Shown: in pieces, positions 30,923 to 59,967 of the stretch
Layout: every line of letters begins with the position of its first letter
Numbering within the stretch: position 1 is the first letter of the stretch
Program-made: the position numbers and the translations under genes
Virus record (IMG/VR): IMGVR_UViG_3300043411_001777
Span: 25,968-89,967 of that record
Source of the DNA: a virus
Strand: one strand, 5' to 3'
Length of the DNA stretch: 64,000 nucleotides
The notes under the pieces: generated by a model
Told to the model about the DNA's origin: nothing
Seen by the model: only the letters and a program-made list of their open reading frames with translations
Database searches by the model: none

Positions 30923-30923
30923 A

Positions 30924-31493: not shown

Positions 31494-32453
31494 TTATGGC
31501 TCTACAAAGGGCTGGTCCGCTGCTTCCTTAGCAGCCTCCACACGCTTGATCAACTCGGCATTGATCGCCTGGTCCATCCATGCTGAGGTGTTCAAAGGCT
31601 TGGTCATACCCTCATTATAGGGTACGAAGAAGACGTTATTATCCCCAGCAGCAGCCTTGCCCATGGTCTGAATCTGCTCGTAGGCGATGAACTGGGGCGT
31701 GATAGAGGCCCCCAGGATGGCATTGGCGTCCGCCACGGACTGAGCGTCCAACAAGCGCTTCTGCGCCTGAATCTGGGCAACCTTGAGATCCGCCTGGGCC
31801 TCTGCAACCTGTGCTTCACCCCGAGCACGCGCTGTCTCAATCTCCACCACCTTCTTAGCCCGAGCTTCCTGGGCATCGGTCACCACATCGGGAAAATCCA
31901 GGTCTGTCAGACTGACCCGCTTGATCTTCACCATACCGTGCTGGGAACTCGCCGTGACTGCCGCCTGTACCTCTTCGATAACAGAGGCGCGAGACTTCAC
32001 CAACTGATCCGTCGAATACCTCGAAATGACCTTCTGGGCTTCCTGAGCCGCATTCGGAATCACATAGGTCTCTGCCAACTGATTGAGCGTGATAACATAG
32101 GGTTCCCCACTAGCGCGAGGGGTCTGTTCCGGCTTCAAATCCTGAAAGGCATTCTTTACGGCCTCTACATCGTTGAGGTCCAACGAAATCAGAATGTCAA
32201 GCGTGAACTTGAAATTCAGAGAATCGTTGCACAACACATCCATCGGAATCTTGAAGTTCTCATCCGTGGTTTCCATGAGATACATGCGACAGCGCCCAAT
32301 GCATGTATGATTTCCAGGCTGGAGAATCCCAGGGTCGAAACCGCTGGGCTCCCGCAACCGACCGATATGGCCCGCAGGCACCGGCTCCGTGCAAGCCGAA
32401 AGAACGAAGAGCAGACCGAAAATAGCGAGCAGACGATACATATTATTCAGCAT
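31494..32453 (-). CDS. SPFH/band-7 (prohibitin/HflC-like) lipoprotein (about 315-319 aa)
   Basis: Signal peptide plus lipobox MYRLLAIFGLLFVLSAC. A central SPFH-like region is followed by an Ala/Gln/Glu-rich coiled coil. Confidence 0.6.
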   Translation of the reverse strand: MLNNMYRLLAIFGLLFVLSACTEPVPAGHIGRLREPSGFDPGILQPGNHTCIGRCRMYLMETTDENFKIPMDVLCNDSLNFKFTLDILISLDLNDVEAVKNAFQDLKPEQTPRASGEPYVITLNQLAETYVIPNAAQEAQKVISRYSTDQLVKSRASVIEEVQAAVTASSQHGMVKIKRVSLTDLDFPDVVTDAQEARAKKVVEIETARARGEAQVAEAQADLKVAQIQAQKRLLDAQSVADANAILGASITPQFIAYEQIQTMGKAAAGDNNVFFVPYNEGMTKPLNTSAWMDQAINAELIKRVEAAKEAADQPFVEP

Positions 32454-32730
32454 CCTTATTACGCAGGTTCTTGAACTGGTTACGGAATTCATTGTATTCT
32501 CGGCCTACAGGAACCTCTTCCTTAGGCTGAGGTGGGACGACAACAACAGGACGAACAGCGGCTTCCTTTTCCTTGTGGTCATCCACAAAGATGGGGTTTG
32601 GGGGCTCCACATTAAACGTTTTGGACGGTTGGATTTCCCCTGCCGTATTCATGCAGAAATACGCGCCAATGCTGGCGGGAACGATGGCGAAAACAACTAC
32701 TGTCCAAAAAACGCCCACATACTTAATCAT
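32443..32730 (-). CDS. small membrane-anchored protein (95 aa), possible NfeD-like partner of the SPFH protein
   Basis: N-terminal TM helix VGVFWTVVVFAIVPASIGAYF and a Pro/Val-rich C-terminus. Confidence 0.4.
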   Translation of the reverse strand: MIKYVGVFWTVVVFAIVPASIGAYFCMNTAGEIQPSKTFNVEPPNPIFVDDHKEKEAAVRPVVVVPPQPKEEVPVGREYNEFRNQFKNLRNKDAE

Positions 32731-33460: not shown

Positions 33461-34372
33461 TTAGGTCGAAATCTCGTAGTTGCAGACGAAAACCTCATCC
33501 GTAACCGGTTTCGCCTTACGAGCGACTTTCCCGTAATTGTAATCCATGACGTGAAGATGGAAACCTTCTGCCAAGAGCTTTGTTACCACAAGGGGATTAT
33601 CGTCGCTATCCGCCCGATAGACATTGGACAAGCCGACACTATCACCCCTCTCGTTCAAACGCATGCACGTATCGTACAGGGTTAGGTCTTGGGTACGCCC
33701 CCAGAAAGTGTTGTACCCAGCCCCATTGTGGGCTCCCGAGTAGGGAGGATCCATATACACCATGGACCCTTCGGGAATGGGCACCTGATCGAAGGGGAGG
33801 CTGTGATAGCTCAGCTTATGCTGATGGGGCTGGAGGTGTTTACGGAAAGCAGTGATTTTCTCTTGGGTCCGCGAATTGAATGAGCGCTGTCCCCAAGTCT
33901 GATTGAACCCCATATTCAGGTTGAACCGGAGCATGTTGTTGGTGCAACTCAGCATAAGGGCGTAGAGCCGAGCGGGAGATTTCTCCCTGTTGTACTCAGC
34001 CCGTAATGCATTATATCCGTTTTGGGTTAGAGCTGTAGCACAAAAAGCCTTTACAAGCTCGACAAAGCCCGGGTCCTGGATTAAGGCTTTGTGTGCTCCG
34101 ACCAAGTCCCCAATGAGATCGTTGACTATGACGTGTTCGTATCGGTCAATGACATTGGTGTAGACAGCCCCACCTCCCGTGAACAAGTCGACAAAGGTGG
34201 AGGGCTTAGGGTCGAATTTGGGGATGAGTTGGTTTAGGAGAAGGAATTTGCTTCCGGTGTAGTTGAAGGGCGGTTGGACGTAATCCGGACTTTCAGAGAG
34301 GAAGGCGAGCAAATCTGTCACAACAGATCCCCATTGCTGTCTACCGAGACATCCTTTCCGCATCTGGCACAT
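33461..34372 (-). CDS. DNA N6-adenine methyltransferase, Dam-like D12 class (303 aa; N-terminus uncertain)
   Basis: FNYTGSKF, FTGGGAVY (SAM-binding) and catalytic DPPY (MVYMDPPYSG). Confidence 0.8.
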   Translation of the reverse strand: MCQMRKGCLGRQQWGSVVTDLLAFLSESPDYVQPPFNYTGSKFLLLNQLIPKFDPKPSTFVDLFTGGGAVYTNVIDRYEHVIVNDLIGDLVGAHKALIQDPGFVELVKAFCATALTQNGYNALRAEYNREKSPARLYALMLSCTNNMLRFNLNMGFNQTWGQRSFNSRTQEKITAFRKHLQPHQHKLSYHSLPFDQVPIPEGSMVYMDPPYSGAHNGAGYNTFWGRTQDLTLYDTCMRLNERGDSVGLSNVYRADSDDNPLVVTKLLAEGFHLHVMDYNYGKVARKAKPVTDEVFVCNYEIST

Positions 34373-41376: not shown

Positions 41377-43110
41377 GTGAACGAAGAAATCCCAGAGAAC
41401 CTCCCCGCCATTGTTGACGTGATTCGTGCCGAAACCGTCGCGGATACAAGCGAACCCGTCGCAATTGGCCAGTGGTTCTGGCGCCGGGCCAAGCCCGAAC
41501 GCTATCTCGTCTGCGTTACCCATGTAGGTTCAAACTTCGCTATGGTTGAAACCGTGGGAGGCCGAACCGAACGAATTCTATTGGAAGATTGGGAACGCCA
41601 TTGTCGAAAGGCAAAGGCCCCTAATCGCTATATCGACACCCAGGTTGGCTTCCACAAGGAACGAGTGCAAGAGCTTCTGTCCGAAGTGCAGGCCGTCACG
41701 GCCCGACTCGGACTTCAGCCTACTGAAGCGCTCGGCAATAGCACGTCCAGCACCAGCCTCGCAGTCGTGCATGGTGTGGGTGACGTCCAGGCCCACAAGC
41801 TCGAATTGATCGAGGCGAAGAGCAAGACACTCCCCGAGCTTTTCAAGGAAATCGAGGGCCAGCATGCCGCTATGGCCATGTGGATGAAAGCCTCACTCAT
41901 CCCCATGAAGGCAATTGCAGCTCAGGCTAGGCAGGCAACGTCGAGCATTGACAGTCGGATCATGATGGTCGAGCTATACGCGGGCTTGACTGAGGAACTG
42001 ACCCAGATCCTGGACGGGGAGCCCGCCCCAAATGACACGCGCATCCACCTGTTTCAGCGCCAGCATTACATGGATGAGGAATGCCTGGCTCAATATGAAG
42101 CCGGGGGCATGGATTTCCGTGGCATCGGTGCTTTTGACAAGTGGCTTGCCCGCCCCCAAAACCTGAATCGTATCCTGCCTTTCCCACGCAGTATCGTTGC
42201 ATTTCAGGTACGCCGAAAGGCTAAGGATTACGGCGAGGCCCGCTCACTGTCTGAAGCGATCCGCTTCTGGGAAATGGGAGAAGCCGACAAGCTGACGTTC
42301 CTGTATATCCGAAACGGAGATACCCTTCACCGATTGAGCACGGCTGTTGAATTCGGCGAGAATCTTTTCCCGGACCATGAGAATGAGGAACTTCTGGGCG
42401 AGGGTCCGAAGTGGATCGTACAGAGTAGCTTTGGATTCGAGAGGGTCATTTCAGAGCGCGAGCATGACGCAGTCATGCTAAAGCGGGAAGAAGAAAACGC
42501 AAAATACAAGCGTGAGCTGGCGGCGTGGAAATCAGAGTCTGAAAAGACGCGCAGTCATTTTGAGCCATATAAACCATATGGGCGGGACACCCATGTTCCC
42601 CTCTCACGTGACAGCGTCTATTACGATGATGCTATGCGGTCGATGGCGGAGAGTGCGGTTGCACACAACCGGATTGCCGTCGTAATCCAGGGGCTTCTGG
42701 ACCGCTCGATTGCGCTCCACCCTCACCCTCCCTGGCAGCTTTGGACCCCGGAAGGTTTTACGGGCGCGCTGGAACTCGTTTTTGACGCGTCCCGGGGCAT
42801 TGCTAATGGGGAGCCGCCGAACTTTGAGGCGTACTTTGCCCGGCTTGGAGAGAGCATTAAGGCTGGCTCCATGGTGATTGGAGCGCAGGAGCTGTGGGAA
42901 CGCGCAGAAGCTGAAAAGGAAAACGACCGGCGACGGAGAAGTTATCGATACCGTTCGGACGAGTGTTACGAGAAGTCCAGTTTCCCTATGGGGGAAGCCC
43001 TCCAAAGAAGTACGGATGCAACAACGTTCACTGCGGTAATCCGTTCGCCTACGTCGAAAAGGACTGTCCAACTTCGTGCCCAAGGTGTGGCGCCAGTATG
43101 GGACGGCTAA
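41377..43110 (+). CDS. large hypothetical protein (577 aa) immediately upstream of rtcB. Its C-terminal ~50 codons overlap an alternative-frame zinc-ribbon ORF.
   Basis: Long ORF with no recognisable motifs. Confidence 0.5.
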   Translation: MNEEIPENLPAIVDVIRAETVADTSEPVAIGQWFWRRAKPERYLVCVTHVGSNFAMVETVGGRTERILLEDWERHCRKAKAPNRYIDTQVGFHKERVQELLSEVQAVTARLGLQPTEALGNSTSSTSLAVVHGVGDVQAHKLELIEAKSKTLPELFKEIEGQHAAMAMWMKASLIPMKAIAAQARQATSSIDSRIMMVELYAGLTEELTQILDGEPAPNDTRIHLFQRQHYMDEECLAQYEAGGMDFRGIGAFDKWLARPQNLNRILPFPRSIVAFQVRRKAKDYGEARSLSEAIRFWEMGEADKLTFLYIRNGDTLHRLSTAVEFGENLFPDHENEELLGEGPKWIVQSSFGFERVISEREHDAVMLKREEENAKYKRELAAWKSESEKTRSHFEPYKPYGRDTHVPLSRDSVYYDDAMRSMAESAVAHNRIAVVIQGLLDRSIALHPHPPWQLWTPEGFTGALELVFDASRGIANGEPPNFEAYFARLGESIKAGSMVIGAQELWERAEAEKENDRRRRSYRYRSDECYEKSSFPMGEALQRSTDATTFTAVIRSPTSKRTVQLRAQGVAPVWDG

Positions 43111-43157
43111 CCGAATCCGAAATACTCTACTATGTAGAGTTTGTTCCTGGAGACTAG
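42963..43157 (+). CDS. zinc-ribbon ORF (64 aa) in an alternative frame. It is either a separate overlapping gene or the true C-terminus of the 41377 gene reached by a frameshift.
   Basis: CNNVHCGN-x15-CPTSCPRCG, GTG start. It ends 2 nt before the rtcB ATG. Confidence 0.35.
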   Translation: MLREVQFPYGGSPPKKYGCNNVHCGNPFAYVEKDCPTSCPRCGASMGRLTESEILYYVEFVPGD

Positions 43158-43159
43158 AA

Positions 43160-44386
43160 ATGCGTGTAATTCAGTCCAATGAGATGCGAGTCCCCGTCAA
43201 GATTTGGGACGGCGGCGGAAACGTTCCTTTCGAGGACGCCGTTATCGGGCAGATTTCCAATGCTGCCACCCTTCCCATCATCCACAACCATGTTGCGCTT
43301 ATGCCCGACGGGCATTTTGGCATCGGAGCCGCGGTCGGATCAGTAATCCCCACCGTCAACGCCATCATCCCTGCGGCTGTAGGCGTGGACATTGGTTGCG
43401 GTATGGCTGCGGTTCAGACTTCCCTGAACGCCTCCCAGCTTCCAGACTCACTCGCTGCACTTCGCTCTGCGATTGAGCAGGCGGTTCCCCATGGCCGTTC
43501 CGACAACGGTGGGTCGAATGACGTGGGGTCCTTCCGGGGCAACTCCCTTCCTGCAACCCACGCAAAGGCATGGGCGGATGAACTGGCCGTGGGGTACGCA
43601 AGGATCGCATCGAAGTATCCCAAGCTCGGCTCTGGTAATTCGGCCAACCACCTCGGAACTCTCGGAACCGGTAATCATTTCACAGAGTTGTGCCTTGACG
43701 AGTCGGGCCAGGTTTGGGTGATGCTGCATTCGGGAAGCCGCGGGGTTGGTAACCGTTTCGGTATGCATTTCATCGCCTTGGCGAAGGAGGATATGATCAA
43801 GGCTGGCCTGACGGCGGTCGACAAGGATCTGTCCTACTTGACCGAGGGGACCCAGCATTTCAACGATTATGTTGAGGCCGTGGATTGGGCGCAGAAGTAC
43901 GCCCGAATCAACCGCCAGCTCATGATGGGGGAGGTTATCCGCGTGATGCGTGATTTCCTCCCACCATTCACGCTGACCGAGATGGCGGTCAACTGCCACC
44001 ACAACTATGTGGCGCGCGAGCACCACTTTGGACAGGATGTCTGGCTCACCCGTAAGGGGGCTGTTTCTGCTGCACAAGGGCAGTTGGGCATCATCCCTGG
44101 ATCGATGGGTGCCAAGAGCTTCATCGTTCGTGGGAAGGGCAACCCCGAGTCCTTCCATAGCTGTTCGCACGGTGCGGGTCGGTCTATGTCTCGGGGTGAG
44201 GCCAAGCGCCGTTTCTCACTTGAGGACCACGAGAAGGCCACTGTTGGGGTGGAGTGCCGAAAGGATGTCGGAGTCATTGATGAGACCCCGGCTGCGTACA
44301 AGTCGATTGACAACGTTATGGCGGCTCAGACGGATCTCGTCGAGATTGTCTACACACTCAAGCAGGTTCTTTGTGTGAAGGGGTAA
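43160..44386 (+). CDS. rtcB: RNA 3'-phosphate/2',3'-cyclic-phosphate ligase RtcB (408 aa)
   Basis: Start MRVIQSNEMRVPVKIWD, with GGAGA upstream. The protein also carries the RtcB hallmarks HNHVALMPDGHFGIG, GCGMA, GTLGTGNHF, LHSGSRGVGN and CHHNY. Confidence 0.85.
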   Translation: MRVIQSNEMRVPVKIWDGGGNVPFEDAVIGQISNAATLPIIHNHVALMPDGHFGIGAAVGSVIPTVNAIIPAAVGVDIGCGMAAVQTSLNASQLPDSLAALRSAIEQAVPHGRSDNGGSNDVGSFRGNSLPATHAKAWADELAVGYARIASKYPKLGSGNSANHLGTLGTGNHFTELCLDESGQVWVMLHSGSRGVGNRFGMHFIALAKEDMIKAGLTAVDKDLSYLTEGTQHFNDYVEAVDWAQKYARINRQLMMGEVIRVMRDFLPPFTLTEMAVNCHHNYVAREHHFGQDVWLTRKGAVSAAQGQLGIIPGSMGAKSFIVRGKGNPESFHSCSHGAGRSMSRGEAKRRFSLEDHEKATVGVECRKDVGVIDETPAAYKSIDNVMAAQTDLVEIVYTLKQVLCVKG

Positions 44387-45229: not shown

Positions 45230-45398
45230 TCTCCTCTACGACGAGGTGCCGTTCGATCTACACGCGGCCCTCATCGAAGCATACTTCGACTACATAGCTG
45301 AGCTGTTCCGCAACAGATTCAGGCACCTCCAACCCATTTCGGTTGAGGTTGACTTTGGCGACAAATGGGGTTGGACAAATGACGCAAACAACGGGTAA
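45219..45398 (+). CDS. small ORF (59 aa, MTNDLLYDEVPFDLHAALIEAYFDYIAELF...), below the ORF-track threshold
   Basis: Protein-like translation. Its ATG overlaps the stop of the 44846-45229 gene (ATGacgaATGA). Manual translation. Confidence 0.3.
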   Translation: MTNDLLYDEVPFDLHAALIEAYFDYIAELFRNRFRHLQPISVEVDFGDKWGWTNDANNG

Positions 45399-45693
45399 TG
45401 TCGAAAACCCGGCTCTTCTTATCCAAAGCGCTTTCTTCCTTGCCAAAGCAAAGAAGACGCTCAAACGCTATTCTGAGTTAGATCAGATCGTTGAAGGCCC
45501 CCCGCAAGGGATTCTCAAGGCAGAGGCCGACTTCATAGAGGGCCAACGCGGCCTAAGGCACCTTTGCGGAAAGAACCTGCATTCCAAGCTCAAAGACCTT
45601 CCCGACGAGTTGCTTGAAACGTGGCTTTTGGCTGGGGAGGAACTCAGCAACGCCTGCGCCAAAATTAGAAACGACCGAAAGGGCAGCACATGA
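45379..45693 (+). CDS. hypothetical protein, paralog of 45690-45998 (104 aa)
   Basis: C-terminal ...LLAGEELSNACAKIRNDRKGST compares with ...ALAGEQIHKICTQIRNDRKDNK. Confidence 0.45.
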   Translation: MTQTTGNVENPALLIQSAFFLAKAKKTLKRYSELDQIVEGPPQGILKAEADFIEGQRGLRHLCGKNLHSKLKDLPDELLETWLLAGEELSNACAKIRNDRKGST

Positions 45694-45998
45694 CCAATGA
45701 TATCCCAAACGGGTATTTCCGACAGGATATGACTGCTCCTAGCATTGGGGGCATAGACCCAGTTCTTCTTGCTCATTTCGCGTACTTCTTTGCTAGAGCA
45801 ACAAAACGCCTCGCAACCGCCACTGTTCCCCAAGAACTTCAAGAAGCGGATTCCTCCGCAAGTTTCCACGGGCGAAGACTACGCTCAATCCTCGGAAAGC
45901 TTCCGAATGATGACTTACTTGAAAGATGGGCGCTAGCCGGCGAGCAGATTCACAAGATTTGCACCCAAATCAGAAACGACCGAAAGGACAACAAATGA
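45690..45998 (+). CDS. hypothetical protein, paralog of 45379-45693 (102 aa)
   Basis: Tandem paralog; its stop overlaps the purA-like start (ATGA). Confidence 0.45.
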   Translation: MTNDIPNGYFRQDMTAPSIGGIDPVLLAHFAYFFARATKRLATATVPQELQEADSSASFHGRRLRSILGKLPNDDLLERWALAGEQIHKICTQIRNDRKDNK

Positions 45999-47128
45999 TC
46001 AGTTTCGCGGACATTGTAGTAGACCTCCGTTACGGCGACTGTGGCAAAGGCGCCGTAGTTTACGAGCTTTGCAAGGACCCCCGTTACGACATCGTCCTCC
46101 GGTGGAATGGGGGGTCCAACGCTGGCCACACGATTTACCACAATGGGGTGAAATTCGCCACCCACCTCATTCCCACTGGAATCTTCCACGGTAAGCTTTG
46201 TGTGATCGGGTCCGGTTGTGTGGTTAACCCGCGCAAGTTTTTTGAGGAGCTTGAGTCCCTTCGCAATATGGGCATTGAAACCGAGGGTAAGGTTTTCATT
46301 GCCAAGAACGCCCATATTGTGACCGAAGAGCATATTGCCTCCGAACAAGCCGAATCCAAAATCGGCACCACTAAACAGGGGATTGGCCCTGCCTACGCTG
46401 CAAAGCACGCCCGTACTGGCATTCGAGCAGAGTCCGTCCCCGAGCTGGCACCTTACCTCGTTGACCTCTATGAGCTGTTCTACAGCTCAACACCCTATGG
46501 AGTCCTAGCCGAAGGGGCACAGGGGTTCGACATTGATATTGACTGGTGTGCAGAATACCCTTTTAGCAGCTCATCCATTGCGACCGTTGCAGGAGCTATT
46601 CAGAATGGCATTCCTTGGGACAAGGTTCGCAAGGTGTTCGGGGTGGCTAAGGCTTACGACACTTATGTGGGCTCCCGGGACTTTGAACCCAAGAACGCGA
46701 TTTTCCAAAAGCTGCGCGAGCTGGGCTCTGAATTTGGGGCTACTACAGGCCGTCCTCGCCAGTGCAATTGGTTGGACCTATATGGGTTGACCAAGGCGAT
46801 CGAAGTGAACAGCGTTACAGACGTGGTCATTTCCAAGATGGATATCCTACGGGAGCTGAACAAACAGACTGACAACCAGAACTGGTGCTTTGCGCATAGC
46901 CGCGAATCCCTTCCTGGGGAGGATTCATTCGTGGCTTATCTCAGCGATCACCTTATGAAGCTGCAAAGCGTGAAACGCCTCCATTGGAGGAATTCGCCAA
47001 CAGATTCAATGGGGAATGGGACGATGTTCTGTCGGGGCACAAGCCGAACTGACAAAACGCAATTAGAAATCATGCGTGACATTCTCCGTCAAGAGCAATT
47101 TAGGTACATTTCCAAGGAAGGGCTATGA
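45995..47128 (+). CDS. purA: short adenylosuccinate synthetase-family protein (PurA-like; 377 aa); PurZ candidate not excluded
   Basis: GDCGKGA P-loop (PurA GDEGKGK), NGGSNAGHT, GIGPAYAAK, GATTGRPRQCNWLDL, and SKMD (a TKLD-like guanine motif). It is about 50 aa shorter than bacterial PurA. AAAGGA RBS. Confidence 0.8.
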   Translation: MISFADIVVDLRYGDCGKGAVVYELCKDPRYDIVLRWNGGSNAGHTIYHNGVKFATHLIPTGIFHGKLCVIGSGCVVNPRKFFEELESLRNMGIETEGKVFIAKNAHIVTEEHIASEQAESKIGTTKQGIGPAYAAKHARTGIRAESVPELAPYLVDLYELFYSSTPYGVLAEGAQGFDIDIDWCAEYPFSSSSIATVAGAIQNGIPWDKVRKVFGVAKAYDTYVGSRDFEPKNAIFQKLRELGSEFGATTGRPRQCNWLDLYGLTKAIEVNSVTDVVISKMDILRELNKQTDNQNWCFAHSRESLPGEDSFVAYLSDHLMKLQSVKRLHWRNSPTDSMGNGTMFCRGTSRTDKTQLEIMRDILRQEQFRYISKEGL

Positions 47129-47631
47129 CCTCAGTATTCCTGGATTCTGATGGTGTTTGCGCTGATTTTGACCGCGGATTCCCTGAAATCTTTGGCATTG
47201 ACCACCGGTCAATCCCAGAAGAAGAGATGTGGCGGCTGGTTGCGGAACTCCCAACCTTTTTTGATGAGCTGCCTCTTATGCCAGATGCAGAAGAGCTGTT
47301 CAATGGGTTGCGGGACTACGATCCTATTATCCTAACCGCATGCCCTAAGGCTTGTTTTCAAGCGGCTGCAATCGCTAAGAAACGATGGGTTCGGCGGCAC
47401 TTCGGGCTTCATGTAAGAGTGCTTCCGGTTTGGGGTGGGAAGAATAAACCCCTCTACATGCACCAGCCTGGGGATATCCTTATTGACGATTGGCAGGACA
47501 ATATCACGGCTTGGAACGCTTTTGGCGGAACTGGCATCCTGCACTTGGATGCAGCTTCCTCGCTTGAGGTTGCACGTATGTCCTTAGCCTATGACACGGA
47601 TAGGGCAGCCCGTCGACGGGTTCGGGAGTAA
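47125..47631 (+). CDS. HAD-superfamily 5'(3')-deoxyribonucleotidase-like protein (NT5C family; 168 aa)
   Basis: N-terminal FLDSDGVCADF (the DxDx(V/T) motif I of HAD, as in deoxyribonucleotidases). Confidence 0.65.
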   Translation: MTSVFLDSDGVCADFDRGFPEIFGIDHRSIPEEEMWRLVAELPTFFDELPLMPDAEELFNGLRDYDPIILTACPKACFQAAAIAKKRWVRRHFGLHVRVLPVWGGKNKPLYMHQPGDILIDDWQDNITAWNAFGGTGILHLDAASSLEVARMSLAYDTDRAARRRVRE

Positions 47632-47634
47632 GGT

Positions 47635-48387
47635 ATGGATTCAAAGTTTCGTGTTCTTCCTCCCGAGCACCTACTTTCTACGGGGCTTCTGTTCGAGATC
47701 AACAGAGCCGTCCTGCACAAGTTCGGACTGGCCCTCGCATACACCACGGACGACACTGATGCGTCCAAACCAGCCTATCTGTCTATCCTAAAAGTGGATG
47801 ACCCCGAGGGGCTAATCTTCGGCGAAGACCTACGTTCTTCGGGCTACCGCAAGTACAAGGACTTTCTTAACGAAGAAACCCCTAAGCTTGCGTGTCGTCT
47901 GGGTACCTTTGGTTGGCTAGATCAGCCTGGGAATGTCGTGACTAAGATAGAGCAATTTACAGGGGAGTACCGTTGGTTGTCCAACTTCTTCGATGTCGAA
48001 GTGGTTTTGGATGGCGTGACGTACAGCTCCACTGAGCACGCTTACCAAGCGGCGAAGACTCTTGACCCGATTGAGCGGGAACGTGTCCGATTGGCCCCCA
48101 CGCACGGGGCCTCCAAGCGGGAGGGGCGAAAGATTACCCTCCGCCCCGGCTGGGACAGCATCAAAAACGATGTCATGTTGGACCTTCTTCGGCAGAAGTT
48201 CGCGCGTCCGGACTTGAGGCGGCTTCTCGACGAGACTGGGGAAACTCAGCTTGTTGAGGGCAATCACTGGCATGATGTGTGGTTTGGCGTGTGTAGCGGC
48301 AAGTGTCGTAGTCCTCATGCTAAGCCTGAGGGTGCCAATCATCTAGGCCGAATGCTCATGCAGGTCCGTGACGAGAACAGGAAATGA
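47635..48387 (+). CDS. NADAR (YbiA/DUF1768)-domain protein with an N-terminal extension (250 aa)
   Basis: YRWLSNFFDVEVVLDGVTYSSTEHAYQAAK ... GWDSIKNDVMLDLLRQKFA ... ETGETQLVEGNHWHDVWFG matches the NADAR signature. Confidence 0.7.
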   Translation: MDSKFRVLPPEHLLSTGLLFEINRAVLHKFGLALAYTTDDTDASKPAYLSILKVDDPEGLIFGEDLRSSGYRKYKDFLNEETPKLACRLGTFGWLDQPGNVVTKIEQFTGEYRWLSNFFDVEVVLDGVTYSSTEHAYQAAKTLDPIERERVRLAPTHGASKREGRKITLRPGWDSIKNDVMLDLLRQKFARPDLRRLLDETGETQLVEGNHWHDVWFGVCSGKCRSPHAKPEGANHLGRMLMQVRDENRK

Positions 48388-48677
48388 AACCGATTACACC
48401 CCAAGAGGTTGTCCGCAAGGTTAAACCTATCCCTCCCGAAATCATTGAGGCTTTCAATGATTTGATCAGGGAGAACATTTCCGGTAATTCGGCCAAAGTC
48501 CTGCTGCGACAAGCTATTTCACGGATAGCCCAGAAGACTGGGTTTAACGAACAAAAGATTCTTCGTTGTTGGTGGTTAGACAACGTGGAACCCATCTTTC
48601 GAGAAGCAGGTTGGGATGTGACATATCGGGACTCACACTACTACGAATCGTATTACCTTTTCACGGTGAAGAAGTGA
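48384..48677 (+). CDS. hypothetical protein, paralog of 48674-48982 (97 aa)
   Basis: KPITPQEV...IPPE(I/V)IE(A/V)FNDLI(R/A)EN(I/F)SGNSA...FTVKK. Confidence 0.5.
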   Translation: MKPITPQEVVRKVKPIPPEIIEAFNDLIRENISGNSAKVLLRQAISRIAQKTGFNEQKILRCWWLDNVEPIFREAGWDVTYRDSHYYESYYLFTVKK

Positions 48678-48982
48678 AACCAATTACACCCCAAGAAGTA
48701 GCTGACCGCAAGGTTAAGTCTATCCCACCCGAAGTCATTGAGGTTTTCAATGACTTGATTGCGGAGAACTTTTCCGGCAATTCCGCAACCGTCACGGTGA
48801 CTCAAGCAGTCACCCGCATCAAAAAGAGGATGGGGAGGCGGACTAATGATGAACAAATCGTTGAACGGGGCTGGTTGGACATTGAGCCTATCTTTCGAGA
48901 AACGGGTTGGGATGTGGTATACGACCAGCCTGGGTACAACGAATCCTACGAGGCGAACTACACTTTCACGGTGAAGAAGTGA
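48674..48982 (+). CDS. hypothetical protein, tandem paralog of 48384-48677 (102 aa), GTG start overlapping the previous stop
   Basis: GTGA overlap. The protein ends TFTVKK. Confidence 0.5.
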   Translation: MKPITPQEVADRKVKSIPPEVIEVFNDLIAENFSGNSATVTVTQAVTRIKKRMGRRTNDEQIVERGWLDIEPIFRETGWDVVYDQPGYNESYEANYTFTVKK

Positions 48983-49446
48983 TGGCGTGGACCTCCAACC
49001 TCAAAATCCTCGAAATGAACCTGTTTGACGCCCCAAAAGGGGCTTTGCTGGTTCATGCCTGTAATTGCATGGGCCGATGGGGGAGCGGTATCGCCAAGGT
49101 CTTCGCAGAGAAAAAGTCGAAGGCTTACGTTGAATACCAACACCTCTGTTCAAGGGGCGTAACCCCAGGTATGGCCGACATTCTTTCTGAGAATGTCGGC
49201 GTCCTCTTCACCTCCAAGGGCTACGCCAGCACCGTTGACAGTCCAGCTCAGATCCTGACAGCGACACGATTGGCCGTCAATGACCTTCTGGCCAAGTGTC
49301 GCTCGGAAGGGCTGTCGCTGGTGTACTCCAACAAGTTCAATTCCGGGCTGTTCAAGGTCCCCTGGGTGGACACTGAGAAAGTGCTGGCAGAGGTTCTGTC
49401 GGGTTACCCTGAAATCGAATGGGTGGTTTGTGACTACACCGGCTAA
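48982..49446 (+). CDS. macro-domain protein (ADP-ribose binding/hydrolase; 154 aa)
   Basis: LVHACNCMGRWGSGIAKVF matches the macro N-x(2)-G-x(2)-G-x-G-(I/V)-A motif. Confidence 0.75.
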   Translation: MAWTSNLKILEMNLFDAPKGALLVHACNCMGRWGSGIAKVFAEKKSKAYVEYQHLCSRGVTPGMADILSENVGVLFTSKGYASTVDSPAQILTATRLAVNDLLAKCRSEGLSLVYSNKFNSGLFKVPWVDTEKVLAEVLSGYPEIEWVVCDYTG

Positions 49447-51068: not shown

Positions 51069-52046
51069 ATGACGGTCGAATCTAGGACACTGATTCAGTG
51101 GCTCCAGGCGCATGGCTTTACGGAGGTGCCGAAGGCCGGGTCTAGTCACCATAAGTGGCAACACGAAAGCACAAAAGCTAAGGTCACGGCTATTCCAACG
51201 CAACGGGAAATGACCCCAAACACACTCACCCTCTGTTTGCGTGAAATCCAACGTGCGGGTTTCCGAAAGCAGGCAGTCCGAAAGGAATTATTCGCGATGC
51301 AAGCAGGCTCTGCAAAGTTGCAAGTTAGCACTATCGACCTGAAGAAGCCAGTTGAGGCCCCAGTAGCTCAATCGGCTCCGTTGATTCAGGCGGAAACCTC
51401 GGCTCCGTCGGCTCCAGTAACCACGGCTAACGTGGCCTCACCCTCTCCTCTCCAGAGCCGTGTTGATGCTGTGCTCAGGCGTGCAGGCGAAGTCATTGGT
51501 CTACCGGCCTTCGCGAAATTCAAGACCACACCAGAGACGGTTGGGCTTTTGACGGCTCTCCTTGAGATCCTGACTCAGGTGGAGGATCTCTTTTTGGAGA
51601 CCGCGTTGAAGGCTGAGGCTCCCAAAACGGAGCTTGCGCCCCTTCCCACATTTACTATGGTCCCCACCCCCTTTGCACTCCCTACCAAGCTCGTTCCCAT
51701 TGGGATCCTCACGGAGGAACACCTTCGGGATGAGGCGCGGTCCCTTCAGCTCCCTAATGGGATGCCGCTGAATGAACTTCGTGAACAGGTTCGAGAGCTT
51801 CTTCTCACTGAAAAGTGGCTCCCTCTCGGGTCAACTTTTCCGGGGTATGAGCTGTCAAATCACAAGCGAATCCGCTCCTATCGAGAGCGAGGATTTCCAA
51901 CCACGCATCGCCGAAAGCTTGCTAAGATTCGGATGCCCGTCGAAGGACGGATTACCCTTCGTGGTCCGGACAAGAAAACCACCAATATCCTGTTGACCAA
52001 CATGGATGCCCTTTGGGCAGATTTGGAAAAGTCAGCGGCCCGGTAG
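51069..52046 (+). CDS. protein with an N-terminal HicA/YcfA-like domain fused to a low-complexity linker and a basic C-terminal domain (325 aa)
   Basis: LIQWLQAHGFTEVPKAGSSHHKWQH...KVTAIP....TLTLCLREIQRAGF matches the HicA toxin fold signature (GSHH). An Ala/Pro-rich linker follows. Confidence 0.5.
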   Translation: MTVESRTLIQWLQAHGFTEVPKAGSSHHKWQHESTKAKVTAIPTQREMTPNTLTLCLREIQRAGFRKQAVRKELFAMQAGSAKLQVSTIDLKKPVEAPVAQSAPLIQAETSAPSAPVTTANVASPSPLQSRVDAVLRRAGEVIGLPAFAKFKTTPETVGLLTALLEILTQVEDLFLETALKAEAPKTELAPLPTFTMVPTPFALPTKLVPIGILTEEHLRDEARSLQLPNGMPLNELREQVRELLLTEKWLPLGSTFPGYELSNHKRIRSYRERGFPTTHRRKLAKIRMPVEGRITLRGPDKKTTNILLTNMDALWADLEKSAAR

Positions 52047-57657: not shown

Positions 57658-58638
57658 TTAGAGTAGGTCGGAAACATCCGACTCAAGTATAGCGCCATCC
57701 GCTGATGATATGCAATAAGGAGAAAACCAAATCCGCTCCTTATGCCGGTTTTTCGCATTCCCCTCATCCGAGGACTGCCCATACGCTCGGGTGGCCGAGT
57801 AGCTAAAACAACGCCACGACGACGGCATTTCATGCTCACCATCGTATCCGCACAACGCAATTCTTATTCGGGGGTCTTCCCCGTGCTCCAGAGCCCATTC
57901 CCGAACCTTAGCCGATAGGTCCGGTTCTTCGTGGGTGTATAGGCCCGCATAGGTGCCCTCATCCGAGTAAGGCGGGTCTAGGAACACCCCTACAGTCTTG
58001 CCTCTGTAGAGAGCCCCCGTAGTGACTACCCGAGACCAATCCCCACAGCACACCCTGACGTGCCGTAGCCGCTCCCTGAGCGAAAACAGATAGTCCCACA
58101 CGTCCTGCGTAGGTCGGTTGATGCCAACGCCTGTAGTGACGAGATTGGGGAGCTTACGGCGAACCCCGGGCGTGCCTTCCGGAGCTGGGACTTTACGGCT
58201 GTCTAAGACTCGGCCATTATCAATGTACCAGGGGCCTTTTCCGCTGCACCAGGCCGCGCCGATCCATGAGGAGATTCCCCATACCCACAGCCCAGCAACC
58301 TGACTGTCAAAATAGAAGGGGTCAGCCTCTAGCTTTGCAATCCGTGCAGCCCCCTCGTTCACTAGCCAAAGGTGGGTGGCGATTAGATCCGTCTCATTGA
58401 CGGGACGATCAGCCCAGACGGCAACCCCTTCCGGGTCATGTTGAATCGCCCGGAAGAAATTGCAAATGAAGCCGTTCAGGTCATTTACGGTTTCAATGCG
58501 TGGTTTGTGGGGTCGTGCCAACAAAACGGCACCCGACCCCACAAACGGTTCCGCATAATGGTCTACGTCACCGAGAGCCCTCCAAACTTCGGCCCCCACA
58601 CGACTTTTACCACCGAAATAGGCAAATGGAGAGCGCAT
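57658..58638 (-). CDS. DNA N6-adenine methyltransferase, Dam-like D12 class (326 aa)
   Basis: FAYFGGKSR, EPFVGSGAV and catalytic DPPY (VFLDPPYSDEG). Confidence 0.8.
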   Translation of the reverse strand: MRSPFAYFGGKSRVGAEVWRALGDVDHYAEPFVGSGAVLLARPHKPRIETVNDLNGFICNFFRAIQHDPEGVAVWADRPVNETDLIATHLWLVNEGAARIAKLEADPFYFDSQVAGLWVWGISSWIGAAWCSGKGPWYIDNGRVLDSRKVPAPEGTPGVRRKLPNLVTTGVGINRPTQDVWDYLFSLRERLRHVRVCCGDWSRVVTTGALYRGKTVGVFLDPPYSDEGTYAGLYTHEEPDLSAKVREWALEHGEDPRIRIALCGYDGEHEMPSSWRCFSYSATRAYGQSSDEGNAKNRHKERIWFSPYCISSADGAILESDVSDLL

Positions 58639-59003
58639 TAGGGCCGAACGAGCTTCGTCACGTCTGAAATCTCACCCGTCATTTGACGGGAAAGGTCTTC
58701 CCAGGAAATGCCGTTCTCTTTCCAATTTTCACCCGTAACCCACCACTTAGAGCCTAGCTTAATCGCTACGTAACGGTAGGTCCGGCTTGAAAATTGGGGA
58801 GTACGACGCCAAAAAATGACGTCTTCATGCCGATAGATATCTTCGCCGAGAGGTGAGGCACGCTTAGCGTGCTCCAACTCAACTTGAAGTCGATTTCTCT
58901 GCCGGAGAGATTTGGCACGGAATTCTTCTGCCCTTTTATTGAATTGCAAGGCCTCGATTTCCAAATCATGCAAAGCCTTGTTAAGTTGCTCAACCTTGGT
59001 CAT
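58638..59003 (-). CDS. hypothetical protein (121 aa)
   Basis: ORF with an ATGA overlap. Confidence 0.45.
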   Translation of the reverse strand: MTKVEQLNKALHDLEIEALQFNKRAEEFRAKSLRQRNRLQVELEHAKRASPLGEDIYRHEDVIFWRRTPQFSSRTYRYVAIKLGSKWWVTGENWKENGISWEDLSRQMTGEISDVTKLVRP

Positions 59004-59967
59004 TTGGCACTTCCTTAAGGTACTTATTCCACTGCTTAAAGGGGATCATGAAGCCCGCCGCGTTCTTGTGCCCACCACCTCCAAATGAAGTGGCAATCTT
59101 GCTAACGTCGGCGCGGTCACAAGACCGCAAAGACACCTGAGCCATAGGCTCTCCGTCCTTGTAGTGAAGATACCACACCACACCGAAAGGCGCGTCCAAG
59201 GCCAAGACGTTTCCGATTTCGGACTGGTAATGGGCAGAACATACAGCGGGAACCAACCAAGGACGCTTTCGCCAGAAAGCCCACCAGGGCTTATGCCCTA
59301 GTCGAATCATTCCCTTATGCTTCACGGAACGCTTAACCTGCTCCTGCTCTGCCTTATAAAGAGCCGTACCGATCAGCTTGGCATTTTCAAATGCCCCCAG
59401 TGCCTGCATCTCTTCGTATGCCGGGATCGAAAAATCCAGGTTAACGAGAAACGAGTTGATTTCCTTTGAATCTGGGAGCTTCCACGTCCAAAGGTCGCGA
59501 TCCTCGGCATAGGCAATGAACCAAGGGACCTCTTCACCAGGGAAGAAGTGCTCCCAGCACATCCCACAACCAGAATGATCCATATCGAACTTGCAATATG
59601 GCAAGTCCCCAAGCTTTTCCTGCGCCGAAATGTGGTGGTCCAGACAAATGAAGGACTGCGCCCTGGCGTTCCAGGTATCCATTGCTTCGCGGCCTAGGGT
59701 CACATCCGCCATAATGACGTGCTTGCCAACAGGGTCCGCTTTAGGGGTCACCCCTGGAATTGTCGGGACCAGCTCGATATTGGCGTCAGGCACCCCCATT
59801 TTCCGGAGGAAGAGAACGATGACCAAAGCTGACATCATCCCGTCAGTACAGTTCTTGTGGAACGAAATAAGGTAAAGGTCGTTAGGGTGCCAATTTCTAT
59901 TTACCACGGTCAAGTCCTTAAAAGGATGAGAGAAACACATTCCAGCCCAGTATTGGGGGAAACTCAT
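58990..59967 (-). CDS. DHH-DHHA1 family phosphoesterase (NrnA/RecJ-like; 325 aa)
   Basis: DHH motif I LISFHKNCTDGMMSA, motif III ICLDHH, and the DHHA1 GGGHKNAAGF. Confidence 0.7.
   Translation of the reverse strand: MSFPQYWAGMCFSHPFKDLTVVNRNWHPNDLYLISFHKNCTDGMMSALVIVLFLRKMGVPDANIELVPTIPGVTPKADPVGKHVIMADVTLGREAMDTWNARAQSFICLDHHISAQEKLGDLPYCKFDMDHSGCGMCWEHFFPGEEVPWFIAYAEDRDLWTWKLPDSKEINSFLVNLDFSIPAYEEMQALGAFENAKLIGTALYKAEQEQVKRSVKHKGMIRLGHKPWWAFWRKRPWLVPAVCSAHYQSEIGNVLALDAPFGVVWYLHYKDGEPMAQVSLRSCDRADVSKIATSFGGGGHKNAAGFMIPFKQWNKYLKEVPNDQG

What the first reader, a model, noticed from the sequence alone, without database searches (positions are those of the whole stretch)
47635..49446. NADAR-domain protein and macro-domain protein flanking two tandem small paralogs: a candidate counter-defence module that reverses DNA ADP-ribosylation
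The NADAR domain (YRWLSNFF...TEHAYQAAK...EGNHWHDVWFG) and the macro domain (NCMGRWGSGIA) are both ADP-ribose-processing hydrolases. NADAR enzymes are reported to remove ADP-ribose from guanine in DNA, and DarG-type macrodomains remove it from thymine. Both modifications are written by DarT toxins of the anti-phage DarTG systems. A phage operon carrying both, linked by overlapping start/stop codons to two unknown paralogs (ending ...FTVKK), suggests an anti-DarTG or ADP-ribosylation-erasing island. The NADAR protein has an uncharacterised ~110-aa N-terminal extension.
Basis: partly seen in the sequence, partly recalled or inferred. Interest (0 to 1): 0.75.

Follow-up and report, generated by a model that had tools for sequence, protein, structure and literature searches.

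The report
Phage ADP-ribose clean-up gene cassette
A large uncultured phage carries four tightly linked genes, two enzymes that process ADP-ribose and two copies of an undescribed small protein, which most likely help it resist bacterial defences that use NAD+ or ADP-ribose; both enzyme types were already described in phages in 2025-2026.

Summary
Window 47635-49446 (+) holds four translationally coupled genes: a 250-aa NADAR protein, two tandem paralogs (97 and 102 aa, 60-66% identical) and a 154-aa macrodomain protein. An independent assembly carries the identical 1,812 bases.

The NADAR domain (residues ~105-250) is YbiA-type. Its catalytic residues E134, K141 and E208 are intact. It is 44% identical to the T5-like phage NADAR that appears to correspond to AdfN-Bas32, a validated anti-DarTG1 factor. 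An anti-DarT1 role is therefore plausible, but already known in kind.

The macrodomain is not DarG-like. Its closest characterised relative is yeast Poa1p, an ADP-ribose-1''-phosphate phosphatase. That is the class to which the 2026 phage counter-defence enzyme Adpp was assigned.

The small paralogs belong to a large unannotated family (2,623 clusters). It has a confident winged-helix fold and is mostly acidic. In about a fifth of 96 loci it lies near phage NAD+ salvage genes, sometimes between Nmnat and Nampt, but mostly not. Its function is unknown.

The ~100-aa N-terminal extension of the NADAR protein is an orphan.

Verdict: a new variant of known phage counter-defence enzymes against NAD+/ADP-ribose immunity, plus one new protein-family lead.

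The parts
47635..47949 (+). Orphan N-terminal extension (residues 1 to ~105) of the NADAR protein: a small alpha/beta domain joined by a flexible linker.
   Evidence: No NADAR homolog covers it. Searched alone it finds one hit, P0004, at E=1.9e-4. There are weak matches to the stand-alone ~90-aa phage families phrog_3954 (E=3.3e-6) and phrog_16397, and only marginal tblastn hits in phages. AF2 pLDDT is 50-75, with the linker (residues 90-98) below 50.
47635..48387 (+). NADAR-domain protein, 250 aa. The YbiA-subfamily NADAR domain is at about residues 105-250 (about 47947-48384). Predicted ADP-ribosyl N-glycohydrolase.
48384..48677 (+). Small paralog A, 97 aa, pI 9.1. Divergent member of an unannotated winged-helix-fold family.
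48674..48982 (+). Small paralog B, 102 aa, pI 5.2, GTG start. Consensus-like member of the same family.
   Evidence: 60-66% identical to A. HMM score 138.7 bits against 102.9 for A. Keeps the family signature residues except the Q column (V42 in B).
48982..49446 (+). Poa1p-type macrodomain protein, 154 aa. Predicted ADP-ribose-1''-phosphate phosphatase (Adpp-like).
   Evidence: Pfam Macro E=4.5e-7. phrog_335 'phosphatase' E=2e-10. PDB Poa1p 6lfq E=1.3e-11 over two segments. It shares HxCNC-G-WG-GIA, LFTS and NSG[LI]F-VPW with Poa1p and the phage Mx1 macro. His25 aligns with Poa1p H23 (the residue changed to Ala in PDB variant 6lfs) and with Adpp H24 (H24A construct listed in Table S4).
43076..44386 (+). 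Context: RtcB RNA ligase, same strand, 3.2 kb upstream.
   Evidence: Pfam RtcB E=1.8e-124.
45926..47128 (+). Context: divergent adenylosuccinate-synthetase-like gene (PurA/PurZ-like). Its stop overlaps the start of the next gene.
   Evidence: Pfam E=2e-77. phrog_1211. NCBIfam PurA scores 253 bits (cutoff 402) and PurZ 101 bits (cutoff 300).
47125..47631 (+). Context: NT5C-type 5'(3')-deoxyribonucleotidase. It ends 4 nt before the NADAR start.
   Evidence: Pfam NT5C E=3.3e-8. phrog_2643 E=2.7e-38.

Best explanation
This is an accessory counter-defence cassette of a jumbo phage (about 206-kb contig). It is aimed at host immunity that uses NAD+ or ADP-ribose, and it is not a specific two-armed anti-DarTG module.

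Shown:
- Four co-directional genes with overlapping stop and start codons.
- An intact YbiA-type NADAR domain.
- A Poa1p-type macrodomain.
- Two winged-helix-fold paralogs.

Inferred:
1. The NADAR enzyme cleaves the N-glycosidic bond between ADP-ribose and guanine in DNA, and possibly RNA. That would undo modification by DarT1-like or other guanine-specific ADP-ribosyltransferases, as the phage AdfN proteins do.
2. The macrodomain removes the 1''-phosphate from ADP-ribose-1''-phosphate. That compound is made by RES-domain NAD+ phosphorylases (aRES defence) and by Tpt1/KptA RNA repair. The reaction yields plain ADP-ribose, as Poa1p and phage Adpp do.
3. Both reactions release free ADP-ribose. 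The cassette therefore both reverses damage and returns ADP-ribose to the pool.
4. The two winged-helix proteins are accessory factors of unknown activity. My best guess is that they bind a protein or ligand rather than acting as classic DNA-binding repressors. The family is mostly acidic and its most conserved parts are the N-terminal tail and the wing loop.
5. The orphan N-terminal domain of the NADAR protein probably targets or regulates the enzyme.
For: Gene structure and coupling.

NADAR:
- Catalytic residues conserved, as defined in PMC11543638.
- 44% identity to the T5-like NADAR. If IrisVonRoten/HildyBeyeler are Bas32/33, as I recall, that protein neutralises DarT1 and rescues phages on DarTG1 hosts (PMC11825919).
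- Every NADAR subtype tested removes guanine-ADPr in vitro (PMC11125620), on RNA as well (PMC11833690).

Macro:
- Poa1p is the best solved relative by about 26 bits, with Poa1p-specific motifs.
- Phage Poa1p-like macrodomains (Adpp) convert ADPR-1''P to ADPR and defeat aRES (bioRxiv 10.64898/2026.01.28.702374). The conserved His is present.

Context:
- RtcB lies 3.2 kb upstream.
- The winged-helix family lies between Nmnat and Nampt (NARP2 homologs) in roseophages and several uncultured phages. In L028/L115 an Adpp-type macro sits in the same cassette. It is near NADAR and PncB in L029/L030/L083, and next to RtcB or PNK in others.
- Iyer et al. 2022 (PMC9503650) reported that NADAR and Macro co-occur in large phages near NAD+ salvage and RNA-repair genes.
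Against: - There is no biochemical or genetic test. All functions are by homology.
- YbiA-type NADARs, including E. coli YbiA, hydrolyse guanine-ADPr in vitro but did not rescue cells from DarT1 (PMC11125620). This NADAR is structurally closest to YbiA.
- TIGR02464, the riboflavin-intermediate N-glycosidase model, scores just above its cutoff.
- The window has no NARP1 (Adps/Namat) or NARP2 (Nampt/Nmnat) gene to use the ADP-ribose produced. The defining NARP1 context of Adpp is therefore absent here.
- Similarity to the validated Adpp of Vibrio phage Gary is limited to the HxCNC..G.GIA motif (E=6e-5).
- A Lys (LFTSK) lies within one residue of the DarG/TARG1 catalytic Lys position, so activity on DNA is not excluded.
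- In an unselected set of 96 distinct winged-helix loci, only 27 had any NAD-salvage, NADAR/macro or RNA-repair gene within about 6 kb. The link of that family to NAD+/ADP-ribose is an enrichment, not a rule.
Confidence: 0.55

Rival explanations
1. This is a dedicated anti-DarTG island in which NADAR removes ADP-ribose from guanine (DarT1) and the macrodomain removes it from thymine (DarT2).
For: The NADAR part is as in the best explanation (PMC11825919). Phage macrodomain mimics of DarG2 do exist (titles and abstracts of PMC11481870 and PMC13309987). There are weak macro matches to DarG: PADLOC 22.9 bits and 5m3i E=1e-3 (I recall 5m3i/5m31 as the DarG macrodomain structures). A Lys is adjacent to the catalytic Lys position.
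Against: Poa1p outscores DarG by about 26 bits. The NCBIfam DarG model gives 17.9 bits against a cutoff of 250. The DarG match covers only the generic N-terminal macro motif. The second substrate loop is NSGLFKVPW as in Poa1p, not GVGNGGLDW (5m3i) or GCGLDRLQW (TARG1), and the TARG1 Asp125 position is Phe. There is no DarT-binding domain. tblastn finds no relative among phages other than Mx1, phiM-type and one Acinetobacter phage.
Confidence: 0.12
2. An RNA-damage reversal island. Together with RtcB, the enzymes repair or clean up RNA. The macro removes Appr-1''-P (a by-product of Tpt1/KptA 2'-phosphate removal) or phosphate-end ADP-ribose. NADAR removes guanine-ADPr from RNA written by RNA-targeting ADP-ribosyltransferases.
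For: RtcB is 3.2 kb upstream on the same strand. Winged-helix homologs sit next to RtcB (L008, L095), to Rnl1 with PNK and a PNKP phosphatase (L001/L002), and to PNKP (L006). Poa1p's native role is in tRNA splicing. NADARs reverse guanosine-ADPr on RNA. Iyer et al. propose this link.
Against: From established knowledge, RtcB joins 3'-P or 2',3'-cyclic-P ends to 5'-OH ends directly and leaves no 2'-phosphate, so no Appr>p or Appr1p is made. No KptA/Tpt1 or 2H phosphoesterase was seen among the window ORFs scanned, although about half of the small ORFs were not scanned. Five genes separate RtcB from the cassette.
Confidence: 0.15
3. Metabolic housekeeping. NADAR acts as a YbiA-type N-glycosidase on reactive riboflavin or nucleotide intermediates. 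It works with the upstream PurA-like and NT5C nucleotide-metabolism genes, and the macro handles free ADP-ribose derivatives.
For: TIGR02464 is just above its cutoff (73.9 against 73.7 bits). YbiA is the closest structure. The cassette directly follows a PurA-like gene and a deoxyribonucleotidase, with overlapping or near-abutting stops and starts. In T5-like phages the NADAR lies near dihydrofolate reductase, thymidylate synthase and RNase H.
Against: That same T5-like NADAR has demonstrated anti-DarT1 activity. Phages have no riboflavin pathway. All NADARs tested cleave guanine-ADPr.
Confidence: 0.08
4. Self-immunity. The hydrolases protect the phage or the infected cell from an ADP-ribosyltransferase encoded by the phage itself.
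For: Iyer et al. note that NADAR genes are co-expressed with phage ARTs in T4-like phages. Many neighbouring ORFs, including the 577-aa ORF at 41377-43110, have no annotation.
Against: No ART domain was detected in any scanned window ORF. The rest of the genome was not seen.
Confidence: 0.05

Closest known systems
AdfN (anti-DarT factor NADAR), in particular AdfN-Bas32 of T5-like phages (Johannesman et al. 2025, PMC11825919)
   Same: An orphan phage-encoded NADAR with no adjacent toxin. It has the same catalytic E-x6-K and the EGN-W-D-WGVC region, and 44% identity over the whole domain.
   Different: It carries a ~100-aa orphan N-terminal domain that no other NADAR found here has, and a 9-residue Cys-containing insertion. 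It sits in an operon with a macrodomain and two winged-helix proteins. Activity is untested. The Bas32/33 = IrisVonRoten/HildyBeyeler equivalence is from my memory of the BASEL collection.
Adpp, the phage Poa1p-like ADPR-1''-phosphate phosphatase of NARP1-AP (Osterman et al. 2026 preprint, 10.64898/2026.01.28.702374), and yeast Poa1p (PDB 6LFQ)
   Same: A single-domain ~155-aa macro protein whose closest characterised relative is Poa1p. The His of HxCNC is conserved. It is encoded by a phage.
   Different: It is closer to yeast Poa1p itself (NSG[LI]F-VPW motif) than to Gary Adpp or T4 Tk.4, which have IGCGLAGG. It is not in a NARP1 operon, and the window has no Adps or Namat.
DarG macrodomain / TARG1 (ALC1-like macrodomains that hydrolyse thymine-ADPr DNA)
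   Same: Macro fold. Weak sequence similarity over the first ~60 residues.
   Different: Scores far below the family cutoffs. The second substrate loop differs and the TARG1 Asp125 equivalent is Phe. There is no DarT-binding C-terminal domain.
NADAR + Macro neighbourhoods of large phages (Iyer, Burroughs, Anantharaman, Aravind 2022, PMC9503650)
   Same: Co-occurrence of stand-alone NADAR and Macro genes in an early/auxiliary region of a jumbo phage, near RNA-repair genes.
   Different: In the passages retrieved by my term searches that survey does not describe the winged-helix small-protein family or this N-terminal fusion.
NARP2 (phage Nampt + Nmnat NAD+ reconstitution; Osterman et al. 2024, 10.1101/2024.02.11.579819)
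   Same: In other phages the small winged-helix gene lies between or beside homologs of KVP40 Nmnat and Nampt.
   Different: NARP2 is described as a two-gene pathway. The window has no NARP2 genes. Most winged-helix loci (78 of 96) show no NAD-salvage gene within about 6 kb.

Membership tests
NADAR superfamily, YbiA subfamily | Profile match above the curated cutoff | tested here: met
   Pfam PF08719 scores 73.3 bits against a cutoff of 35.1. TIGR02464 scores 73.9 against 73.7.
NADAR superfamily, YbiA subfamily | NADAR/YbiA fold | tested here: met
NADAR superfamily, YbiA subfamily | Catalytic Glu and Lys seven residues apart, with Glu as the third acidic residue (Asp in the DarT1-linked BC4488 type, His in the T4 type) (PMC11543638) | tested here: met
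   E134, K141 and E208. All are at least 90% conserved among 78 homologs.
AdfN (phage anti-DarT1 NADAR) | Phage-encoded orphan NADAR homologous to a validated AdfN | tested here: met
   44% identity (E=2e-37) to the T5-like NADAR. That gene is 97% nt identical in IrisVonRoten and HildyBeyeler. PADLOC found no DarT among the neighbours tested.
AdfN (phage anti-DarT1 NADAR) | Removes ADP-ribose from guanine in DNA and restores phage growth on DarTG1 hosts | not testable with these tools
   Needs biochemistry and plaque assays. Note that YbiA cleaves in vitro but does not rescue in vivo.
DarG-type / TARG1-type macrodomain | Profile match to DarG at family level | tested here: not met
   NCBIfam antitoxin_DarG scores 17.9 bits against a cutoff of 250. 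PADLOC DarG scores 22.9 bits over residues 9-66 only.
DarG-type / TARG1-type macrodomain | Catalytic Lys (TARG1 K84, DarG K80) and, for TARG1, Asp125 | tested here: inconclusive
   In alignment A4, K84 aligns with Ser and a Lys follows it. Asp125 aligns with Phe. The TARG1 sequence was verified against PDB 2lgr. The HMMER alignment to 5m3i puts the TKKHW loop in an insertion.
DarG-type / TARG1-type macrodomain | C-terminal DarT-binding domain (DarG2) | tested here: not met
   The protein is 154 aa, a single macro domain.
Poa1p / Adpp-type ADPR-1''-phosphate phosphatase | Closest characterised homolog is Poa1p | tested here: met
   6lfq E=1.3e-11 over two segments. The next family scores E=1e-3. 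phrog_335 'phosphatase' E=2e-10.
Poa1p / Adpp-type ADPR-1''-phosphate phosphatase | Conserved His of HxCNC (Poa1p H23, Adpp H24) and the Phe of the NSGIF loop (Poa1p F152) | tested here: met
   His25 and NSGLFKVPW are present. An Adpp H24A construct is listed in Table S4 and mutations in Adpp abolish anti-defence. PDB mutants 6lfs and 6lfu mark the same residues.
Poa1p / Adpp-type ADPR-1''-phosphate phosphatase | Encoded inside a NARP1 operon (Adps + Namat), which defines NARP1-AP | tested here: not met
   tblastn with Adps and Namat (Gary, SPbetaL1) finds nothing in the window. The other ~140 kb of the genome was not seen.
Poa1p / Adpp-type ADPR-1''-phosphate phosphatase | Dephosphorylates ADPR-1''-P to ADPR | not testable with these tools
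   An enzyme assay is needed.
Winged-helix fold (small paralogs) | H-b-H-H-b-b topology with structural matches to winged-helix domains | tested here: met
Winged-helix DNA-binding regulators | Basic DNA-binding surface or recognition helix | tested here: inconclusive
   81 of 100 members are acidic, with a median pI of 5.5. The helix in the recognition position carries a nearly invariant Glu. Paralog A is basic (pI 9.1).
aRad1 (small phage inhibitor of aRES) | Sequence homology to aRad1a-g | tested here: not met
   The winged-helix HMM finds none of the three aRad1 sequences tested (aRad1a-c, taken from Table S4). They are about 70 aa with unrelated motifs.

The most novel reading that the evidence does not exclude
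The two small paralogs represent a large, undescribed family of phage winged-helix proteins (at least 2,600 sequence clusters, almost absent from cultured phages). The family would be a new functional partner of NAD+/ADP-ribose counter-defence enzymes. For example, it could inhibit or act as a decoy for host NAD+-consuming effectors, or it could tune NARP2, NADAR or macro activity through its conserved N-terminal tail and wing loop. Tandem paralogs (2 here, 4 in L032, fused pairs such as P0008) would reflect diversification against host variants.
Probability: 0.2. Interest if true: 0.7.

Novelty: new variant of a known kind. Interest (0 to 1): 0.45.

Why it matters
The two enzymes belong to classes shown in 2025-2026 to let phages escape DNA ADP-ribosylation (AdfN against DarTG1) and RES-type NAD+ destruction (Adpp against aRES). 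Finding both in one translationally coupled cassette, outside any NARP operon, suggests that phages bundle ADP-ribose 'erasers' as a general module.

The practical lead is the small winged-helix family. It is abundant in metagenomic phages, has no annotation in any library searched, folds confidently, and in some phages sits between the two NARP2 genes. If it modulates or complements NAD+ counter-defence, it would add a component to a pathway now described as having two genes.

The orphan N-terminal domain on the NADAR protein could show how a generic hydrolase is directed to its substrate.

Tried and rejected
1. DarG identity of the macrodomain: rejected on profile scores and motifs.
2. Winged-helix paralogs = aRad1: rejected. 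No homology, different length.
3. NARP1 or NARP2 genes in the window: none by tblastn with validated sequences.
4. Winged-helix family as an obligate NARP2 subunit: rejected. Only 18 of 96 distinct loci have a NAD-salvage gene within about 6 kb. The most frequent same-strand neighbour family is an ATP-dependent DNA ligase (9 loci), followed by Nampt (7), a metallophosphoesterase (6) and Nmnat (5).
6. Relatives of the whole cassette: no near-identical DNA in 50,697 phage records. The macro found no relative in IMG/VR by pattern scan. No other locus was found with NADAR-WH-WH-macro in this order.
7. Promoter and terminator scan of 40.5-51.5 kb: counts equal to the shuffled expectation, so uninformative.
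8. PurZ (Z-genome) reading of the upstream PurA-like gene: unresolved. It scores below both the PurA and PurZ cutoffs.
9. PDB sequence searches of the 577-aa and 176-aa neighbours, and a winged-helix profile search: no hits.
10. Foldseek against AFDB50 was unavailable. BFVD gave only one true family member, without a name.
Full report
**1. What is there**

Window 47635-49446 on the + strand holds four ORFs joined by overlapping stop and start codons:
- a 250-aa protein at 47635-48387;
- a 97-aa protein at 48384-48677 (ATGA overlap);
- a 102-aa protein at 48674-48982 (GTG start, GTGA overlap);
- a 154-aa protein at 48982-49446 (TGATG overlap).

Pfam places a NADAR domain at residues 111-247 of the first protein (E=3.6e-20). 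It places a Macro domain at residues 25-135 of the last (E=4.5e-7). Both scores are above the curated cutoffs.

The two small proteins are 60-66% identical.

The cassette is the end of a run of same-strand genes. These include RtcB RNA ligase (43076-44386, E=1.8e-124), a divergent adenylosuccinate-synthetase-like gene (45926-47128) and an NT5C deoxyribonucleotidase (47125-47631).

The window belongs to a 206,089-bp metagenomic contig. It is made of many small co-directional ORFs with no near-identical DNA among 50,697 phage records. Other genes include TnpB, two Dam methylases, a radical-SAM protein, and DHH and SPFH proteins. This is typical of the accessory region of a jumbo phage.

A Logan assembly of a public sequencing run carries the same 1,812 bases at 100% identity, with the same gene calls.

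**2. The NADAR protein**

All 1,208 homologs found align only to about residues 105-250. Most are stand-alone proteins of 140-170 aa, up to about 60% identical.

The domain model is very confident (pLDDT 91-99). It superposes best on:

The residues shown by Schuller et al. to be needed for guanine-ADP-ribose hydrolysis are a Glu, a Lys seven residues later, and a third acidic residue. That third residue is Glu in the YbiA subfamily (PMC11543638). Here they are E134, K141 and E208. All three are at least 90% conserved among 78 homologs, and D214 is invariant.

The domain is 44% identical (E=2e-37) to the NADAR of T5-like phages. That gene is 97% identical in nucleotides in Escherichia phages IrisVonRoten and HildyBeyeler. 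To my knowledge these are BASEL Bas32 and Bas33. Their NADAR, AdfN-Bas32, neutralises DarT1 and restores plaquing on DarTG1 hosts but not on DarTG2 hosts (PMC11825919). One recent phage record already labels the gene 'antitoxin-like enzyme'.

There are caveats:
- E. coli YbiA and T4 gp30.3 cleave guanine-ADPr in vitro but did not rescue cells from DarT1 (PMC11125620).
- The NCBIfam riboflavin-intermediate N-glycosidase model scores just above its cutoff (73.9 against 73.7 bits).

**3. The N-terminal extension**

Residues 1 to about 105 have no counterpart in any NADAR found. Searched alone they give:
- one hit at E=1.9e-4 among 5.8 billion proteins;
- marginal tblastn hits in large phages;
- weak matches to two stand-alone ~90-aa PHROG families of unknown function.

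AF2 predicts a small alpha/beta domain at low confidence (pLDDT 50-75), joined by a disordered linker at residues 90-98. I could not assign a fold.

It is not the short beta-beta-alpha extension that forms the putative DNA groove of DarT1-linked NADARs.

**4. The macrodomain**

The best solved relative is yeast Poa1p, the ADP-ribose-1''-phosphate phosphatase of tRNA splicing. The match is E=1.3e-11 over two segments.

The next matches are 5m3i and 5m31, at E=1e-3 and 4e-2. I recall these as the M. tuberculosis and T. aquaticus DarG macrodomains. TARG1 scores about E=0.6.

Profile scores against DarG are low. The NCBIfam DarG model gives 17.9 bits against a cutoff of 250. The PADLOC DarG model matches only residues 9-66.

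The window protein, the macro of Myxococcus phage Mx1 (43% identical) and Poa1p share HxCNC-G-WG-GIA, LFTS and NSG[LI]F-VPW.

The TARG1 catalytic Asp125 aligns with Phe. The catalytic Lys84 aligns with Ser, followed by a Lys. The TARG1 sequence was verified. DNA glycohydrolase chemistry is therefore unlikely but not excluded.

A January 2026 preprint shows that Poa1p-like macrodomains of phages ('Adpp') dephosphorylate ADPR-1''-phosphate. That compound is the product of the RES-domain defence aRES. Dephosphorylation lets NARP1 rebuild NAD+ (10.64898/2026.01.28.702374). An Adpp H24A mutant is listed in its Table S4 and mutations in Adpp abolish anti-defence. The equivalent His25 is present here.

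Two things do not fit:
- Similarity to the validated Gary Adpp is limited to that motif (E=6e-5). Gary Adpp, T4 Tk.4 and the L028 macro form a different subtype with an IGCGLAGG loop.
- The window contains no Adps, Namat, Nampt or Nmnat.

Poa1p-like macros are common in phages: 696 records match, mostly T4-like Tk.4.

**5. The small paralogs**

They match nothing in Pfam, PHROGs, NCBIfam, PADLOC or PDB sequences.

An exhaustive profile search finds 2,623 clusters (at 50% identity) at E<=1e-3, and 1,859 at E<=1e-10. Most are stand-alone proteins of about 100 aa.

Other properties:
- The family is mostly acidic: median pI 5.5, with 81 of 100 members acidic.
- Its invariant residues lie in the N-terminal tail (P3, P6), helix 1 (N25, I28), a Glu in the helix at the recognition position (E69), and the wing (G76, W77, V79, Y81, D82, P84, E88, F93).
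- Paralog B follows the consensus. Paralog A is basic (pI 9.1) and differs at two nearly invariant positions.

Only five cultured phages carry the family, all DSS3P8-like roseophages. In these the gene sits between NadM-Nudix (Nmnat) and NadV (Nampt). Those two genes are homologs of the validated KVP40 NARP2 pair. The cluster lies downstream of an Rnl1-type RNA ligase, a PNK kinase and a PNKP phosphatase.

Among uncultured phages I found:
- Nmnat-WH-Nampt (L023, L093, L107);
- Nmnat-WH-macro (Adpp-type)-Nampt (L028/L115);
- Nampt-WH (L014);
- PncB...NADAR...WH (L029, L030), and NADAR 217 bp upstream (L083);
- PncB and macro (L092);
- CinA-WH-PNKP (L006);
- RtcB within 1 kb (L008, L095);
- four tandem copies (L032).

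In the wider set of 96 distinct loci, NAD-salvage genes lie within about 6 kb in 18. NADAR or macro genes do in 6 and RNA-repair genes in 9. Any of these occurs in 27.

Unbiased clustering of same-strand neighbours ranks the families as follows:

| Neighbour family | Loci |
|---|---|
| ATP-dependent DNA ligase | 9 |
| Nampt | 7 |
| Metallophosphoesterase | 6 |
| Nmnat | 5 |

NARP2 occurs in only about 1.1% of phage genomes. The association is therefore a strong enrichment but not a rule. My panel used single sequences and under-counts.

The family is not aRad1. It is nearly absent from bacterial genomes: two candidate-phyla (CPR) metagenome-assembled genomes.

**6. How it most likely works**

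Shown: the gene structure, the domain identities, the intact catalytic residues, the winged-helix fold and the genomic associations.

Inferred: the cassette is an ADP-ribose 'eraser' module for counter-defence.
- NADAR would remove ADP-ribose from guanine in phage DNA, and possibly RNA, after attack by DarT1-like transferases.
- The macro would convert ADPR-1''-phosphate to ADP-ribose. The substrate would come from RES-type NAD+ phosphorolysis, or possibly from Tpt1-type RNA repair.
- Both reactions yield free ADP-ribose.
- The winged-helix proteins and the N-terminal domain are accessory, with unknown roles.

I put this at 0.55. The rivals are:
- an RNA-damage reversal role together with RtcB, 0.15;
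- metabolic housekeeping, 0.08;
- self-immunity against a phage transferase, 0.05.

**7. Comparison with what is known, and novelty**

NADAR as a phage anti-DarTG1 factor (2025) and Poa1p-like macro as a phage anti-aRES phosphatase (2026) are already published. NADAR-Macro co-occurrence in large phages was noted in 2022 (PMC9503650).

New here:
- this particular four-gene arrangement, outside any NARP operon;
- the orphan N-terminal fusion on the NADAR protein;
- the recognition that the 'unknown paralogs' belong to a very large, unannotated winged-helix family that is enriched near phage NAD+ salvage, ADP-ribose hydrolase and nucleic-acid repair genes.

I rate it a new variant of a known kind, with interest 0.45.

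Noticed in passing
window 45926-47128 (+): Divergent adenylosuccinate-synthetase-like gene. PHROG labels the family PurZ (the enzyme for 2-aminoadenine 'Z' DNA). NCBIfam scores are below both cutoffs: PurA 253 bits against 402, PurZ 101 bits against 300. The closest phage relative is only 42% identical, in a 735-kb uncultured phage. I did not establish whether this phage makes Z-DNA, and I did not look for DatZ or MazZ.
   Followed up: partly
window 45343-45693 and 45690-45998 (+): A second pair of tandem small paralogs (116 and 102 aa, 38% identity, E=2e-15), both ending ...IRNDRK. No match in any library. They lie just upstream of the PurA-like gene.
   Followed up: partly
window 41377-43110 and 43076-44386 (+): RtcB RNA ligase preceded by, and overlapping, a 577-aa ORF with no Pfam, NCBIfam, PADLOC or PDB match. 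This could be an unrecognised partner in RNA repair.
   Followed up: partly
window 17016-18281 (-): A TnpB/IS605 OrfB-type gene (HTH_OrfB, OrfB_IS605 and Cas12f1-like TNB domains) inside the phage accessory region. I did not look for the associated guide RNA or element ends.
   Followed up: no
window 51069-52046 (+): A 325-aa protein whose first ~55 residues match the HicA toxin domain (E=2.5e-7). The rest is unannotated.
   Followed up: no
window 8628-9746, 30116-30967, 31494-32492, 33461-34372, 57658-58638, 58990-59967 (all -): Other accessory genes, in the order of the coordinates given: a radical-SAM protein, an R2K ATP-grasp protein, an SPFH/Band 7 protein, two D12-class adenine methyltransferases, and a DHH/DHHA1 phosphoesterase. 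The window has no tRNA genes.
   Followed up: no
L028 4638-9141 (also L115): An uncultured 187-kb phage has Nmnat-Nudix, an 87-aa ORF, the winged-helix gene, a 100-aa ORF, an Adpp-type macrodomain and Nampt in one cassette. This puts an Adpp-like phosphatase with NARP2, whereas the 2026 preprint describes it with NARP1.
   Followed up: partly
L032 767-2193; protein P0008: Four tandem copies of the winged-helix gene on one contig, and a 269-aa protein made of two fused copies. Repeated duplication appears to be a feature of the family.
   Followed up: partly
L027, L054, L057, L060 and others, about 400 bp upstream of the winged-helix gene: An ATP-dependent DNA ligase is the single most frequent same-strand neighbour of the winged-helix family (9 loci). 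A ~183-aa metallophosphoesterase is adjacent in 6 loci. This points to a wider link with nucleic-acid end repair.
   Followed up: partly
window 48292-48333 (NADAR residues 220-233): The NADAR domain has a 9-residue insertion relative to the T5-like AdfN-type protein. The surrounding segment reads CSGKCRSPHAKPEG and contains two Cys and one His. Its significance is unknown.
   Followed up: no
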